A program made the translations under genes and the position numbers. Positions 24,144-28,053 of a DNA stretch of 64,000 nt are shown one piece after another (within the stretch, counting starts at the first letter, position 1; every line of letters begins with the position of its first letter). Below the pieces are notes generated by a model. It searched no databases. It had not been told where the DNA came from and was given only the letters and a program-made list of their open reading frames with translations. The DNA lies in the IMG/VR virus record IMGVR_UViG_3300042562_001017, positions 17,086-81,085 of that record; one strand, given 5' to 3'. Source of the stretch: a virus.

Positions 24144-24175
24144 TTTGCTTTTTAATATTTTTTTTTGTATATTTG
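24144..24175 (+). promoter_or_regulatory. Bacteroidota sigma70-type promoter for the HNH gene
   Basis: TTTG (24144-24147), 20-nt spacer, TATATTTG (24168-24175). Confidence 0.75.
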
Positions 24176-24180
24176 TTTCT

Positions 24181-24993
24181 ATGAATAATACAGATAAAAT
24201 AGGACTAAGATTTAACAGATTAGTTATTGTTGAATTAGCAGGGAAAGATAAGTTTGGCAAAACTTTGTATAAATGCCTGTGCGACTGCGGAAATTATAAT
24301 ATTACAAATATTAGTCAGCTAAGAAGTGGTAAGACTGGAAGTTGCGGATGCTATCATAGAGAAAGGATTTCAGAAAGTAAAAAGAAAGATTTGACAGGAT
24401 TTTCTAATAATAGATTAACTGTCATAAAATTATCTTCTGAAAAAAAATCTAGCAATCAAATGTGGATATGCAAATGCGAGTGCGGCAACGAAGTGATTGT
24501 GAAAGGTGCTAGCATAGCAAATGGGAATACAAAATCTTGCGGATGTTTAAGTATTGAAAAAATAATAGAAAGAAACACAACGCATGGCAAAAGCAGCACT
24601 GATGAAGCCAAGGTTTGGTATAGAATTAGAAAAAGATGCTTAAACCCAAAAGACTATAATTATAATAGATACGGTGGCAGAGGAATAAAAATATGCGATA
24701 GGTGGTTAAATAGTTTTGAAAATTTTTTATCTGATATGGGCAAAAGACCAACTTCAAAACACAGTATAGATAGGATAGATAATAATGGGGATTATGAGCC
24801 AAATAATTGCAGGTGGGCAACAAGACTTGAGCAAGCTAATAATACCTCAAAATGTGTAGAGATTATGCATAAAGAAACTGGTGTTTTTTATACATCAATT
24901 AATGCAGCTTCTAGAGCATTTAATCTGCCTAAAGGTTTTCTGGATGACCAATTAAGAAAAAGAAATAAAAATAGTAAATTTGTAAAATTATGA
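24181..24993 (+). mobile_element. free-standing HNH homing endonuclease
   Basis: Two CxCxCG...SCGC zinc repeats, [30 protein letters not shown]; ATG 24181 is the likely start (track gives 24145). Confidence 0.9.
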
Positions 24994-25167: not shown

Positions 25168-25914
25168 ATGAAGAACTTACCTAAAGAAGAACTTTTAAGC
25201 CGACTAGAAGCAATTAATCGCAGCAATGCTATTATTTACTTTGACTTGAACGGATTTATTCTTGGCGTCAATGCAATCTTTTTGAAGGCTATGGGCTTTC
25301 AAGAAGACGAACACGATAAGCTAATTGGCAAACATCACTCTATCTTTGTTGACTATAAGTATAGCAAATCGGAAGAATATGTAAAGTTTTGGGAGGTTCT
25401 AAGAAGCGGAAAGTTCTTCGAAGGAGAGTTTGAAAGGAAAAAGATTGATGGTAGTCCAATTTATTTGCAGGCTACTTACAACCCAATCTTTGATGAAGAC
25501 GGAAACATCACTAAAATAATGAAGATTGCAACCGATATTTCTCAGATGGTTGTAAGTAAAAAAAAGATTGATGAATTATCCGCTAATCTACAAGCAGAAT
25601 TAGAAAATTCAAACAAGCTAAAAGAAGCTATTGAGATAGAAAAGGATGCAGCTTTAAACGACCTAGACGCAAGTATTAAGAAAAGCCAAAACGAACTGAT
25701 TAAAGTGATTGTGAAAAGTGCTTTATTTGTCATTATGAGCGTAGGCTTCATTACAACTATCATGTATTCCTTTGCTATTCTTTCAAACAAAGATACTCAG
25801 ATAATCGGCTCAACTTGGAGTAATATGTTTAGTGTTTTATTGACAAACGCATTCTCAATAGTTGGAACTATTATGGGTATTAAATACGCAACCTCAGATA
25901 ATCAAACTAAATAA
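25168..25914 (+). CDS. PAS-domain, coiled-coil, two-TM membrane protein (candidate sensor holin/antiholin)
   Basis: AINRSNAIIYFDLNG...IGKHHSIFV...FWEVLRSG...GEFER...LQATYNPIFDEDGNITKIMKIATDIS is a chemoreceptor-type PAS/PAC domain; two C-terminal hydrophobic helices; 7 nt before the endolysin. Confidence 0.85.
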   Translation: MKNLPKEELLSRLEAINRSNAIIYFDLNGFILGVNAIFLKAMGFQEDEHDKLIGKHHSIFVDYKYSKSEEYVKFWEVLRSGKFFEGEFERKKIDGSPIYLQATYNPIFDEDGNITKIMKIATDISQMVVSKKKIDELSANLQAELENSNKLKEAIEIEKDAALNDLDASIKKSQNELIKVIVKSALFVIMSVGFITTIMYSFAILSNKDTQIIGSTWSNMFSVLLTNAFSIVGTIMGIKYATSDNQTK

Positions 25915-25921
25915 ATAAACT

Positions 25922-26386
25922 ATGCAATTAAGTACTAATCTTTCATTAGCCGAAGTTACAAGAAGCGAAACCGCTAAACGTAAAGGAATTAGTAATATGC
26001 CAACTCCTGAGCATATTGAGAACTTTAAGAAGTTAGCTGCAAATATATTCCAACCAATTAGAGAACACTTTGGCAAACCTATTATAATCAGTTCAGGTTA
26101 TAGAAGCGCAGAGTTAAACAAGGCTATCAGTGGAAGTTTGTCCAGCCAACATTGCTCAGGTGAAGCGATTGATATTGATATGGATGGAACGGACATTACC
26201 AACAAGCAAATCTTTGATTACATTAAAGACAACTTAAATTTTGACCAAATGATTTGGGAATTTGGAACAGATGCTAATCCTGATTGGGTTCACGTTTCTT
26301 TTGCTGCAAATAGGTCACAACGTAAACAAATATTAGTTGCTAAAAAGGTAAATGGAAAAACCACCTACACTCCTTACGTTAAATAA
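25922..26386 (+). CDS. endolysin, peptidase M15 family
   Basis: ISSGYRS, SQHCSGEAIDI and WVHVS zinc-peptidase motifs. Confidence 0.92.
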   Translation: MQLSTNLSLAEVTRSETAKRKGISNMPTPEHIENFKKLAANIFQPIREHFGKPIIISSGYRSAELNKAISGSLSSQHCSGEAIDIDMDGTDITNKQIFDYIKDNLNFDQMIWEFGTDANPDWVHVSFAANRSQRKQILVAKKVNGKTTYTPYVK

Positions 26387-26387
26387 A

Positions 26388-26663
26388 ATGGCTGAAGCTA
26401 AGTTGACTGTTATAGATAGAATGAAGATATGGGCATTCCCTGTGAGTATGTCCATTATATCTTTTTACCTTTTTGCTACATTTAAAAAATTAGATGAGGT
26501 GCATGCTGATGTTCATGCAGTAAAGATTTCTATAGAAGTGCTTAAAAAGGATATAGATTATTCTAAAGCTACTGTTAGTGACCATGAACAAAGACTTAGA
26601 GGTTTAGAAAAATCAACATCAGTAGATAATACTAGAGTAAACTATGAAGCTTATAACAATTAA
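26388..26663 (+). CDS. single-TM coiled-coil lysis-cluster protein (holin/antiholin-like)
   Basis: TM WAFPVSMSIISFYLFATF then a coiled coil ending DHEQRLRGLE; ATG 26388. Confidence 0.6.
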   Translation: MAEAKLTVIDRMKIWAFPVSMSIISFYLFATFKKLDEVHADVHAVKISIEVLKKDIDYSKATVSDHEQRLRGLEKSTSVDNTRVNYEAYNN

Positions 26664-26684
26664 AACTAATTTTATAAAAATATA

Positions 26685-27116
26685 ATGAAATACTTAATTT
26701 TACTTTTAGTAATTATCTTTTGTTCAGCTGTAATGGACACAACAAATTACATTGCAGCTTTTTTAAAAAGAAAAGGCTATCAAAAATTATTTGAATGGTT
26801 TAATAGTAATAGCTGGAAAAACAAATGGCGTTTTTCAGAGTGGCTTCAAAAAATTGGATTAAGTAAGAGGTTAGCTAAATGGCTTGCAGCAGATGTACTT
26901 GTTATATTTACTGATGGATGGCATTTTTTTAAAGCAATAATGATGGCTTTGATTCAATATATGGTTGCTGTTCTATCTATTGGTAATGTAAATAGCTTTT
27001 TGATTTTTATTAACTTTCCTATTACAAATATTAGCGTTGAAGTATTAGCCTTTATTTTGTTCTTAGTAGGAGGTCAAATATTTAATTTAATTTTTTACAG
27101 ATTTAGAAGATTATGA
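26685..27116 (+). CDS. multi-TM membrane protein
   Basis: SWKNKW and FTDGWHFFK motifs, several hydrophobic helices. Confidence 0.65.
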   Translation: MKYLILLLVIIFCSAVMDTTNYIAAFLKRKGYQKLFEWFNSNSWKNKWRFSEWLQKIGLSKRLAKWLAADVLVIFTDGWHFFKAIMMALIQYMVAVLSIGNVNSFLIFINFPITNISVEVLAFILFLVGGQIFNLIFYRFRRL

Positions 27117-27397
27117 TGCCAAACATTCAAGAGTTTAAATGGATAGAAATGTTTACTGATAGTAAAGGTAGAACAAGTCCAAGTAAAGTATTAGGATTTT
27201 TTGGAGGAGTAATTTCTTTATTAGTATTCTTTATAGCTGCTATGGATGCTATATTTTTTTCTTTAAATGAATTTAGTAATGGTACATTAACAACACTTAC
27301 TGTTCAAGCATTAGCTTTATTTACTGCTAGTGGAACATTATTAGGTATTAGACGTTTTACAAAAGATAAAGAAGTATTAGATGAAAAAAACAATTAA
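27113..27397 (+). CDS. putative two-TM holin
   Basis: DSKGRTSPSKV then two TM helices and a charged C-terminus. Confidence 0.6.
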   Translation: MMPNIQEFKWIEMFTDSKGRTSPSKVLGFFGGVISLLVFFIAAMDAIFFSLNEFSNGTLTTLTVQALALFTASGTLLGIRRFTKDKEVLDEKNN

Positions 27398-27770
27398 AAA
27401 TTTTAAGATAAAAAATATGAGTGTTGATAAAGTATTAAATTTTATATTATTGCTATTTATAGTGTTAATTGTTATTTTTAAAAATAATGAAACAAATAAA
27501 TTAGAAAAACAAATAAATGAAATGTCTTTAAAAGAAGACACTTTATTTACTAATTACAATAAGTTATTGAATAATTATGAAACTCATGATTCAGTATTAA
27601 ATTTATCTATAAATAATAGAAAACAAAATGTATATGTTACTAATAAAATAATTTACGAAAATGAAAAAAAAGATATTGTTAACCTTTCTGATTATCACAC
27701 CGATAGTTTGTTTAAGTCAAATCTCAAATGGGCTTACGCTAGATACTTCTATTTATTTAACGAAAACTGA
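27381..27770 (+). CDS. putative inner-membrane spanin-like protein
   Basis: N-terminal TM plus periplasmic coiled coil; overlaps the next gene. Confidence 0.5.
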   Translation: MKKTIKNFKIKNMSVDKVLNFILLLFIVLIVIFKNNETNKLEKQINEMSLKEDTLFTNYNKLLNNYETHDSVLNLSINNRKQNVYVTNKIIYENEKKDIVNLSDYHTDSLFKSNLKWAYARYFYLFNEN

Positions 27771-28053
27771 TAAAATTGTAGTTAATCTTATGGCTAAAGA
27801 AATTAAACAATTAGAAAAACAGTCTTTAGGTAAAGATACTATAATCAATGAATTGGTTGAAAGAATCAATTGGAAAGATGTTATGATTAATTCAAATAAG
27901 AAAACTATTGCAGACTATAATAATAAAACTTCTAAATTAGAAAAAGAAAACGTAAATTTGAAGAATTCAATTATTAAATATAAATCTAGATATAATATTG
28001 CATTAACTGTTGCAATTATAGAAGGAGTTATATTAACTTTATTATTATTATGA
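27661..28053 (+). CDS. putative spanin-like protein (signal peptide, coiled coil, C-terminal TM)
   Basis: MKKKILLTFLIITPIVCLSQ...IALTVAIIEGVILTLLLL; 110-nt overlap with the previous gene. Confidence 0.5.
   Translation: MKKKILLTFLIITPIVCLSQISNGLTLDTSIYLTKTDKIVVNLMAKEIKQLEKQSLGKDTIINELVERINWKDVMINSNKKTIADYNNKTSKLEKENVNLKNSIIKYKSRYNIALTVAIIEGVILTLLLL

What the first reader, a model, noticed from the sequence alone, without database searches (positions are those of the whole stretch)
25168..26386. PAS-sensor membrane protein heading the lysis cassette: candidate signal-gated holin or antiholin
Seen: a 248-aa ORF with a complete PAS/PAC domain (aa ~10-125), a coiled coil and two C-terminal TM helices. 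It ends 7 nt before the M15 endolysin and is followed by holin- and spanin-like genes. It has no kinase, MCP signalling or GGDEF output domain, so the membrane helices appear to be the output. Established: this PAS subtype (GKHHSIFV, FW..L..G, ATYNPI..KIATDI) occurs in BdlA/Aer-like chemoreceptors, which are linked to cofactor-based redox/oxygen sensing, and holin timing depends on membrane energetics. Inference: the phage joined a host chemoreceptor sensor to a holin-like module so that lysis timing follows host redox, oxygen or metabolic state. I do not know of a described PAS-holin.
Basis: partly seen in the sequence, partly recalled or inferred. Interest (0 to 1): 0.92.

Follow-up and report, generated by a model that had tools for sequence, protein, structure and literature searches.

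The report
Phage sensor-coupled membrane hairpin beside endolysin
An uncultured lake-water phage carries, directly before its cell-wall-cutting enzyme, an optional gene joining a cytoplasmic PAS sensor through one long helix to an almost invariant two-helix membrane hairpin; it probably tunes when the host bursts, which no studied phage is known to do and which is untested.

Summary
ORF 25168-25914 encodes 248 aa: a PAS domain, a long helix and two C-terminal membrane helices. It stops 7 nt before an M15 endolysin gene.

It is not a one-off. It belongs to a large family seen almost only in viral contigs, with three forms:
- two PAS domains (~370 aa);
- one PAS domain (this window);
- no PAS (~190 aa), always preceded by a phage PAS-histidine kinase gene and a receiver-only response regulator gene.

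All forms share a loop plus second membrane helix that is invariant at 30 of 32 residues, although synonymous sites are scrambled.

PAS-fused members lie within four genes of an endolysin in 51 of 52 loci, and five unrelated endolysin types occur across the family. However, the gene is absent from 24 cassettes with closely related endolysins, which keep other holin candidates. In one complete 252-kb phage it lies 120 kb from the endolysin. It matches no described holin family.

Best reading: an accessory, signal-driven lysis-timing regulator, not the essential holin. The redox signal and the host-chemoreceptor origin are not shown.

This scan found the same family earlier on other DNA and read it the same way. 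Nothing has been tested experimentally.

The parts
25168..25914 (+). Gene for the 248-aa PAS + long helix + two-helix membrane hairpin protein, called 'the family' in this report
   Evidence: ORF; start and stop read. 4562 near-length homologues. 186 viral contigs hold relatives.
25195..25545 (+). PAS domain (aa ~10-126), cytoplasmic, cofactor or ligand unknown
   Evidence: Pfam PAS_9 E 5e-11; PAS, PAS_3 and PAS_4 above cut-off. Family PAS profile against PDB: MmoS 3EWK E 4.9e-14, Aer 8DIK E 1.1e-9, NifL 2GJ3, LOV domains.
25540..25701 (+). Cytoplasmic part of the long connecting helix (aa ~125-178), continuous with the first membrane helix
   Evidence: AlphaFold2 helix 125-206, pLDDT 72-81. 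The PAS-less relative gives a single helix 38-151 at mean pLDDT 82. The heptad pattern is weak.
25702..25785 (+). Membrane helix 1 (aa ~179-206), variable in sequence across the family
   Evidence: Kyte-Doolittle 19-residue mean up to 2.2. Alignment A2. No polar face.
25795..25890 (+). Turn plus membrane helix 2 (aa 210-241), invariant at 30 of 32 residues, with a Ser/Thr/Asn/Gly face
   Evidence: Invariant columns T210-A241 in 43 dereplicated sequences. Third codon positions are only 49% identical, including AGY/TCN serine switches. Polar and small residues cluster on one helical face, permutation p 0.002.
25922..26386 (+). Endolysin, Peptidase_M15_3, with no signal or membrane segment
   Evidence: Pfam E 1.1e-20, phrog_894 endolysin E 3.4e-41. 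No hydrophobic segment.
26388..26663 (+). Small protein with one membrane helix followed by a helical region. The ORF opens at 26352, but the ATG at 26388, 1 nt after the endolysin stop, is the likelier start. It occupies the place where the closest relatives carry a Phage_holin_4_1 gene. Holin candidate.
   Evidence: Relatives L036-L045 have a PF05105 holin here. The window's record has no PF05105 match.
26685..27116 (+). 143-aa multi-pass membrane protein, conserved after the holin in close relatives (32-35% identity); function unknown
   Evidence: No family match.
27113..27397 (+). 94-aa protein with one strong and one weaker hydrophobic segment and a charged C-terminal tail; holin-like in layout only
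   Evidence: Profile comparison with the small two-helix family found beside relatives is not significant (probability 9%).
27381..27770 (+). 129-aa protein with an N-terminal membrane helix; spanin-like in layout only
   Evidence: No family match.
27661..28053 (+). 130-aa protein with an N-terminal signal-like segment containing Cys17 and a C-terminal membrane helix. It overlaps the previous gene in another frame. Unimolecular-spanin-like in layout only.
   Evidence: No family match.

Best explanation
The gene encodes an accessory, signal-responsive regulator of lysis timing. It belongs to a crAss-like lake-water phage that probably infects Bacteroidota.

Proposed mechanism:
1. The PAS domain sits in the cytoplasm and binds a cofactor or small ligand that is still unknown.
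2. Its state is passed along one uninterrupted helix into membrane helix 1, and so to the tightly packed, almost invariant helix 2.
3. The hairpin then acts in the inner membrane. It either holds back or releases the phage's hole-forming protein, or it changes membrane energisation, which holins respond to.
4. The result is that endolysin release comes earlier or later according to the state of the infected cell.

In related phages the same hairpin has a small N-terminal domain instead of PAS. There it is presumably driven by the phage's own PAS-histidine kinase and single-domain response regulator.

What is shown: the architecture, the family, the gene neighbourhoods, the selection on the hairpin and the optional presence of the gene.

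What is inferred: membrane topology, signal transmission, action on lysis, the direction of the effect and the nature of the signal.
For: Architecture:
- PAS plus a continuous helix plus a hairpin, with no enzymatic output domain.

The hairpin is the conserved output:
- 30 of 32 residues of the turn and helix 2 are invariant across 43 dereplicated sequences that are otherwise about 40% identical.
- Third codon positions are 49% identical, so the constraint is on the protein.
- Helix 2 has a one-sided Ser/Thr/Asn/Gly face.

Sensory input is a constant of the family:
- It is either fused PAS domains, one or two.
- Or, in the PAS-less form, an upstream PAS-histidine kinase (55/56 loci) and receiver protein (53/56 loci; 20/20 dereplicated clusters) with overlapping or 2-8 nt gene junctions.
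- The receiver keeps its acidic pocket, phospho-acceptor Asp, Ser and Lys.

Link to lysis:
- An endolysin lies within four genes in 34/34 one-PAS and 17/18 two-PAS loci.
- Across the family these endolysins are of five unrelated types: M15_3, GH19, GH24 lysozyme, Amidase_2 + PG_binding_1, and DUF5675 in the endolysin slot. Gene order varies, and Phage_holin_4_1 and unimolecular-spanin-like genes sit alongside.
- In the window the gene is 7 nt from the endolysin, in a co-directional late block between tail-fibre-like and virion genes.

Accessory rather than essential:
- Of loci whose M15 endolysin is 78-84% identical to the window's, 20 carry the gene.
- 24 loci with at least 2.5 kb on both sides lack it. 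21 of those keep the small two-helix protein just upstream of the endolysin, and one joins a Phage_holin_4_1 gene directly to the endolysin.

Virus-restricted:
- 186 + 317 viral contigs carry family members.
- One full-length hit among 185,579 species genomes, on a 32-kb phage-like contig.
Against: - No experiment and no expression data exist.
- No homology to any known antiholin or holin. The PHROG holin family phrog_689 is reached by only 5 of 43 members, best E 0.007. The commonest match, phrog_1544, has unknown function.
- In half of the PAS-less clusters no lysis gene lies within four genes.
- In a complete 252-kb record the gene lies about 120 kb from the only endolysin-type match and about 158 kb from the small two-helix gene.
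- An antiholin would be expected to co-vary with its holin. Yet the hairpin is invariant while the neighbouring holin candidates differ: Phage_holin_4_1, the small two-helix family, or neither, as in this window.
- Conserved neighbourhood among related phages is not independent evidence in every locus.
Confidence: 0.5

Rival explanations
1. It is itself a holin. The hairpin oligomerises into holes that release the endolysin, and the PAS domain gates when this happens.
For: - The two-helix hairpin, probably with both ends in the cytoplasm, resembles class II holins (the comparison rests on my own knowledge).
- Helix 2 is amphipathic, with a polar and small face that could line a pore.
- The gene lies directly before a signal-less endolysin.
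- The window's record has no Phage_holin_4_1 and no member of the small two-helix family.
- In loci such as L087 it is the only multi-pass membrane protein next to the endolysin.
- A few members weakly touch a PHROG holin family.
Against: - It is optional in cassettes with closely related endolysins, which keep other holin candidates.
- L087-type records still carry the small two-helix gene about 6 kb away.
- The window has three other small membrane proteins downstream that could be the holin.
- Its size (181-381 aa), very short C-terminal tail and extreme sequence conservation are unlike holins.
- It has no significant holin family match.
Confidence: 0.15
2. It is a signal-gated membrane effector whose purpose is not lysis timing. 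It might manipulate host membrane energetics or a conserved host membrane protein, exclude superinfecting phages, or counter a host defence. Its place beside lysis genes would then reflect a shared accessory region.
For: - The invariance of helix 2 across marine and freshwater phages with different holins points to a conserved target or a fixed channel geometry, not a co-evolving phage partner.
- Sensory input is universal in the family, but lysis linkage is not.
- The layout of sensor domain plus membrane helices recalls ligand-gated depolarising effectors such as Cam1 (PMC10808066).
Against: - 51 of 52 PAS-fused loci have an endolysin within four genes, despite changes of endolysin family and gene order.
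- There is no match to defence or anti-defence models.
- Any depolarising activity late in infection would itself trigger holins. This rival therefore merges with the main explanation unless the gene is expressed early.
Confidence: 0.25
3. It is a membrane-tethered PAS decoy or sink. It would titrate a host ligand or heterodimerise with host PAS sensors, and the hairpin would be only an anchor.
For: - The PAS domain is 45-51% identical to PAS domains of cellular multi-PAS signalling proteins.
- It has no output domain.
Against: - An anchor does not need 30 of 32 invariant residues.
- The hairpin also occurs without any PAS domain, behind a kinase and receiver pair. The hairpin, not PAS, is therefore the constant functional part.
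Confidence: 0.07

Closest known systems
Phage T4 lysis inhibition: holin T with antiholins RI (periplasmic) and RIII (cytoplasmic) (PMC11413866, PMC8385771)
   Same: An accessory phage protein adjusts the moment of holin triggering in response to a signal, and lysis still occurs without it. Here the gene is likewise optional and lies among lysis genes.
   Different: There is no sequence relation. RI senses superinfection in the periplasm and has no sensor domain of a general signalling class. Here the input is a cytoplasmic PAS domain or a phage two-component system, and the acting part is a membrane hairpin. Binding to a holin is not shown.
Class II holins and their antiholin forms, with two membrane helices (for example phage 21 S68/S71); own knowledge, not tested here
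   Same: Two membrane helices joined by a short turn, probably with both ends in the cytoplasm. One helix is rich in small and polar residues. The gene sits next to the endolysin.
   Different: It is 248 aa against about 70. It carries a 180-aa cytoplasmic sensor and helix in front, has almost no charged C-terminal tail, shows extreme conservation, and matches no family.
VqmA-Phage of vibriophage VP882 (PMC7790227)
   Same: A phage-encoded receptor, which by my own knowledge has a PAS-type ligand-binding domain, lets a phage time host killing according to a small-molecule signal.
   Different: VqmA-Phage is a soluble transcription factor that acts on the lysis-lysogeny switch through Qtip. Here there is no DNA-binding domain, and the output is a membrane hairpin in the lysis cassette of an apparently lytic phage.
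Ligand-gated membrane effectors of defence systems, for example CARF-transmembrane Cam1 (PMC10808066)
   Same: A cytoplasmic sensor domain is coupled to a few membrane helices, with no enzymatic domain. Activation changes membrane integrity or potential.
   Different: Those are host defence proteins with CARF, SAVED or cNMP sensors. There is no homology, the gene is phage-encoded, and pore or depolarising activity is not shown here.
Aer / MmoS / NifL-type flavin PAS sensors
   Same: They are the best solved matches to the family's PAS profile: 3EWK E 4.9e-14, 8DIK E 1.1e-9, 2GJ3 E 1.7e-5.
   Different: No HAMP, MCP or kinase output is present. The Aer Arg-His-Pro-Asp stretch aligns with Val-Ser-Lys-Glu, so flavin binding is not established.

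Membership tests
PAS domain superfamily | Significant match to the PAS fold models over the full domain | tested here: met
   PAS_9 43 bits (cut-off 27), PAS 38.9 (22.6), PAS_3 39 (25.6), PAS_4 30.6 (23.1), covering aa 20-126. The profile hits solved PAS structures.
Aer/BdlA-type chemoreceptors (MCP) | MCP signalling domain (and HAMP in Aer) after the PAS domain | tested here: not met
   No MCPsignal or HAMP match at E <= 0.1. Precomputed Pfam lists of 120 homologues hold PAS families only. The JGI name 'methyl-accepting chemotaxis protein' is a transfer from the PAS part.
Flavin-binding PAS sensors (Aer, MmoS, NifL) | Bound FAD or FMN and the residues that hold it | tested here: inconclusive
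   These are the nearest solved relatives, but the Aer R-H-P-D stretch aligns with V-S-K-E. The model of the PAS part is poor, with pLDDT below 50 in places. Spectroscopy is needed.
Holins (described families) | Sequence membership in a described holin family | tested here: not met
   No Pfam holin match at E <= 0.1. phrog_689 (holin) is reached by 5 of 43 family members, best E 0.0072. The most frequent match is phrog_1544, of unknown function.
Holins (described families) | Small protein (about 60-150 aa) with one or more membrane helices and a charged C-terminal cytoplasmic tail | tested here: not met
   The protein is 248 aa (family range 181-381). Only about 8 residues follow helix 2. Two membrane helices are present.
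Holins (described families) | Gene adjacent to the endolysin gene | tested here: met
   7 nt upstream of the M15 endolysin. An endolysin lies within four genes in 51 of 52 PAS-fused loci.
Holins (described families) | Forms membrane lesions and is required for endolysin release | not testable with these tools
   Indirect evidence points the other way: the gene is absent from 24 cassettes with closely related endolysins.
Antiholins / lysis-timing regulators | Dispensable accessory gene encoded with the lysis genes | tested here: met
   Presence or absence varies among cassettes with 78-90% identical endolysins. Lysis-gene neighbourhood.
Antiholins / lysis-timing regulators | Binds the holin and alters its triggering time | not testable with these tools
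No experiment exists.
Two-component signal transduction (relatives only) | Histidine kinase with an ATPase domain plus a receiver with a phospho-acceptor Asp, encoded together | tested here: met
   In the PAS-less relatives the 410-aa protein has PAS_3 + HATPase_c, and the 148-aa protein has Response_reg. Receiver D12, D13, D66, S97-99 and K119 are invariant. Gene order is constant. The window itself has neither gene.

The most novel reading that the evidence does not exclude
The invariant hairpin is a new kind of phage membrane switch. It would be a gated conductance, or a clamp on a conserved host membrane component. Phages would drive it either with a fused PAS sensor or with their own histidine kinase and receiver protein. 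An infected cell's internal state, such as redox, energy or a metabolite, would then set the moment of lysis. That would be the first lysis clock with a dedicated intracellular sensor, and the first phage two-component system with a membrane protein as its output.
Probability: 0.3. Interest if true: 0.9.

Novelty: new variant of a known kind. Interest (0 to 1): 0.75.

Why it matters
Lysis timing sets burst size and phage fitness. The known regulators either respond to superinfection, as in T4 lysis inhibition, or act on transcription, as with quorum-sensing receptors.

Here a sensor is wired directly, or through a phage two-component system, to a membrane element in the lysis cassette. That would mean common aquatic phages of Bacteroidota read the physiological state of the infected cell to decide when to burst it. 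Such behaviour bears on virus-driven carbon turnover in lakes and the sea.

The family is abundant: thousands of sequences, and this stretch recurs in at least 24 lake-water metagenome runs. It is unannotated, or misnamed 'methyl-accepting chemotaxis protein'. It is also compact enough for direct tests. The 32-residue invariant segment is a clear target for mutagenesis.

Tried and rejected
Searches that found nothing useful:
- Cultured phages (INPHARED). Only three partial matches to the PAS part and none to the hairpin. No DNA match for the region. No match for the PAS-less form.
- ESM Atlas on the helix and hairpin: no usable hit.
- Foldseek against BFVD with the PAS-less model: only one uncharacterised family member was significant.
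- PADLOC: nothing significant for the protein, kinase, receiver or neighbours.
- Longer fused forms of the hairpin (over 434 aa): none found, which is weak evidence.
- Literature: no paper describes a PAS-holin, or a phage kinase and receiver pair linked to lysis.
- Sigma-70 promoter and terminator scan: fewer promoter-like sites than in shuffles and no informative terminator.
- Sequencing runs: no RNA holder listed.

Ideas tested and not supported:
- The window's 94-aa protein as a divergent member of the small two-helix family: not supported (hhalign probability 9%). That small family has no PHROG match.
- The single PAS as a clean PAS1/PAS2 recombinant: not supported. The first 35 residues are PAS1-like and the rest is mixed. 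In the quick tree it groups with PAS1 (SH-aLRT 88).
- The fused PAS as copied from the phage kinase's PAS: not supported. Identity is 38-39%, against 45-51% to cellular PAS domains, and the two form separate groups in the tree. The careful tree search did not finish, so only the quick tree was used.

Tools that could not be used:
The receiver with the N-terminal domain, and the hairpin with holin candidates, could not be tested.

Method note:
- My simple ORF picker missed some small genes, such as the two-helix gene in L062 and L111. This was corrected with an HMM search of six-frame translations.
Full report
**1. The observation**

The window is bases 17086-81085 of an 81,085-bp IMG/VR virus record that CheckV rates 93% complete.

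ORF 25168-25914 (+) encodes 248 aa.
- Its ATG lies 4 nt after the stop of a 57-aa gene.
- Its TAA ends 7 nt before the ATG of the next gene.
- Pfam finds one PAS domain at aa 20-126, with four PAS models above cut-off (best E 5e-11), and nothing else.
- Hydropathy gives a strong hydrophobic segment around aa 180-205 and a weaker one around aa 212-240.
- AlphaFold2 on a 43-sequence family alignment gives one unbroken helix over aa 125-206, a four-residue turn, and a helix over aa 211-244, with pLDDT 70-81 in that part. The PAS part is poorly modelled.

The next gene (25922-26386) is a Peptidase_M15_3 endolysin (Pfam E 1e-20, phrog_894 E 3e-41) without a signal or membrane segment.

Downstream lie five small membrane proteins (26352-28053). 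None matches any holin or spanin family. They are lysis candidates by layout only.

The block sits between a tail-fibre-like gene and virion structural genes. The phage has TerL, portal and major head genes. Its TerL is closest, at 33% identity, to Flavobacterium phage FpV4 and Bacteroides crAss-like phages.

**2. It is one member of a large, virus-restricted family**

- A near-length search found 4562 homologues. The best are 70-78% identical over 94% of the query, but about 370 aa long, because they carry two tandem PAS domains before the same helix and hairpin.
- In IMG/VR, 186 contigs encode relatives, in both one-PAS (246-253 aa) and two-PAS forms.
- Among 185,579 species genomes only one full-length relative appeared. 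It lies on a 32-kb contig binned with a Saprospira MAG, and its neighbours are phage lysis genes. All other cellular hits match the PAS part alone.
- A search for short relatives of the C-terminal part led to a third form in 317 further viral contigs, mostly marine by their sample series.
- This third form has 181-218 aa and a small conserved N-terminal domain instead of PAS.
- AlphaFold2 models it confidently (mean pLDDT 82) as a 37-residue cap, one 114-residue helix that runs into the membrane, a turn and a return helix.
- No form longer than 434 aa was found.
- No cultured phage in INPHARED has the hairpin.

**3. The hairpin is the constrained part**

In 43 sequences dereplicated at 88% identity, the stretch T210-A241 of the window protein (turn plus helix 2) is invariant at 30 of 32 positions. 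The rest of the PAS-less forms is only about 40% identical to the window protein.

The same 32 codons are 49% identical at third positions and include serine AGY/TCN switches. The constraint is therefore on the peptide, not the DNA.

The Ser/Thr/Asn/Gly residues of helix 2 fall on one helical face (resultant 0.52, permutation p 0.002). Helix 1 shows no such pattern.

**4. Sensory input is constant across the family**

In PAS-less loci with enough flank, the gene is preceded by two phage genes:
- a 410-aa membrane protein with PAS_3 and HATPase_c, in 55/56 loci;
- a 148-aa receiver-only response regulator, in 53/56 loci.

Both are present in all 20 dereplicated clusters.

In L116 the kinase and receiver genes overlap by 4 nt. 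The receiver and hairpin genes are 8 nt apart, and a conserved 176-aa gene of unknown function follows after 2 nt.

The receiver keeps its invariant acidic pocket, Asp66, Ser97-99 and Lys119.

PAS-fused forms never have the kinase and receiver pair. The simplest reading is that the hairpin is an output module that phages drive either with fused PAS domains or with their own two-component system.

The fused PAS is not a recent copy of the kinase's PAS. Identity is 38-39%, against 45-51% to PAS domains of large cellular multi-PAS proteins, and a weakly resolved quick tree puts them in separate groups.

A profile of the family's PAS domains matches flavin sensors best among solved structures:
- MmoS 3EWK, E 4.9e-14
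- Aer 8DIK, E 1.1e-9
- NifL 2GJ3
- LOV domains

The Arg-His-Pro-Asp stretch of Aer aligns with Val-Ser-Lys-Glu, so the cofactor remains open.

**5. Link to lysis**

The table counts loci with at least three called genes on each side and looks within four genes of the family gene.

| Form | Loci with an endolysin nearby | Dereplicated clusters |
|---|---|---|
| One PAS | 34/34 | 7/7 |
| Two PAS | 17/18 | 7/8 |
| PAS-less (any lysis gene) | 23/56 | 10/20 |

The neighbouring endolysins across the family belong to five unrelated types: M15_3, GH19, GH24 phage lysozyme, Amidase_2 with PG_binding_1, and DUF5675 in the endolysin slot. Gene order varies.

Frequent companions:
- A Phage_holin_4_1 protein.
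- An unannotated small two-helix protein of about 79 aa. It lies within 1.5 kb in 34/50 one-PAS, 26/30 two-PAS and 26/77 PAS-less loci.
- A lipobox-plus-C-terminal-helix protein that looks like a unimolecular spanin.

The linkage is weaker in the PAS-less branch. In the complete 252-kb record G002 the gene lies near 50 kb. The only endolysin-type match (Amidase_2) is at 170 kb and the small two-helix gene is at 208 kb.

**6. Holin or accessory?**

I searched viral contigs with the window's endolysin.
- Of loci whose M15 is 78-84% identical to the window's, 20 carry the family gene.
- 24 loci with at least 2.5 kb on each side do not.
- 21 of those 24 have the small two-helix gene directly upstream of the endolysin.
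- In L231, L243-L245, L249 and L270 the two-helix gene, GH24 and M15 trio of L085 is kept at 82-91% identity without the sensor gene.
- In L259 a Phage_holin_4_1 gene abuts the endolysin where L086 has the sensor gene between them.

Lysis cassettes of this kind therefore work without it. The protein also matches no holin family, is much larger than holins, and is far more conserved than holins usually are.

Points in favour of a holin role:
- The window's own record has neither Phage_holin_4_1 nor the small two-helix family.
- In L087-type loci it is the only multi-pass protein beside the endolysin, although the two-helix gene is present about 6 kb away.

I therefore favour an accessory lysis-timing regulator (0.5) over a gated holin (0.15).

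The invariance of helix 2, set against variable holin neighbours, keeps a third reading alive at 0.25. That reading is a gated membrane effector acting on membrane energisation or a conserved host component. If expressed late, it would still end in holin triggering.

A plain PAS decoy is unlikely (0.07), because the hairpin, not the PAS domain, is the constant part.

**7. Comparison with known systems**

- The closest functional parallel is T4 lysis inhibition. There, antiholin RI binds holin T and delays lysis in response to superinfection (PMC11413866, PMC8385771).
- VqmA-Phage shows that phages do carry receptors that time host killing, but it works through transcription (PMC7790227).
- Sensor-plus-membrane-helix effectors such as Cam1 show that ligand binding to a cytoplasmic domain can open a depolarising membrane element (PMC10808066).

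None of these is homologous to this family. I found no paper on a PAS-coupled lysis protein, or on a phage kinase and receiver pair next to one.

**8. Relation to earlier notes of this scan**

After my own analysis of the family, its neighbourhoods and the kinase and receiver link, a look-up showed follow-up reports on the same family in four other genomes, with the same reading. Their remark that the gene is optional was a lead, which I then tested here.

**9. Limits**

- There are no expression data. No RNA run was listed, while 24 lake-water metagenome runs hold the stretch as DNA.
- Gene calls in the loci come from a simple ORF picker, checked by hand and by HMM where it mattered.
- Neighbouring loci are phylogenetically related, so locus counts overstate independent events. 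Counts by dereplicated cluster are given for that reason.

Noticed in passing
L116:817-3606 (and L117-L195): Marine viral contigs, including a complete 252-kb record, encode their own two-component system directly upstream of the hairpin gene. It consists of a membrane PAS-histidine kinase (410 aa) and a receiver-only response regulator (148 aa) with intact phosphorylation residues. A conserved 176-aa gene of unknown function follows.
   Followed up: partly
L093:3309-3545, L111:5688-5957, L062:1873-2112 and about 90 other loci: An unannotated family of roughly 75-95-aa proteins has two membrane helices and a charged tail and sits directly beside endolysins of several types. It is the likely holin of these phages, yet has no Pfam or PHROG match. 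It is absent from the window's own record.
   Followed up: partly
window 24145-24993: An HNH endonuclease gene (phrog_374, E 9e-85) lies between the 95-aa and 57-aa genes upstream of the lysis block. Close relatives (L038, L043) have those two genes adjacent without it, so it looks like a homing-endonuclease insertion.
   Followed up: partly
window 26352-26663: In the closest relatives (L036-L045) a Phage_holin_4_1 gene follows the endolysin. In the window, and in the near-identical L049, that slot holds an unrelated protein with one membrane helix. Its likely start is the ATG at 26388, 1 nt after the endolysin stop.
   Followed up: partly
window 27381-28053: Two genes overlap by 110 nt in different frames. 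One product has an N-terminal membrane helix. The other has an N-terminal signal-like segment with a Cys and a C-terminal membrane helix. The layout resembles spanins, but there is no family match.
   Followed up: no
L190:1693-2148, L187 (cluster c62): A DUF5675 protein (Pfam E 8.5e-28) occupies the endolysin position, between the small two-helix gene and the Phage_holin_4_1 gene, in some marine loci. This suggests DUF5675 is an endolysin family.
   Followed up: no
L002 (JBIPOO010000016.1, 32 kb): A contig binned into a Lake Mendota Saprospira MAG carries the two-PAS hairpin gene with a GH19 endolysin, the small two-helix gene and a Phage_holin_4_1 gene. It is probably a phage contig or prophage, and is only a weak hint that the hosts are Saprospiraceae or other Bacteroidota.
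   Followed up: no
L087:4764-5864 (- strand): A polyphosphate-kinase-2-like 366-aa gene lies divergently upstream of the two-PAS hairpin gene in 55-118-kb viral contigs. I identified it by eye and did not scan it.
   Followed up: no
window 29932-56187: A run of giant ORFs (1548, 808, 658, 1547, 2243 and 1796 aa) follows the lysis block. Together with the TerL relation to FpV4 and Bacteroides crAss-like phages, this fits a crAss-like genome plan.
   Followed up: partly
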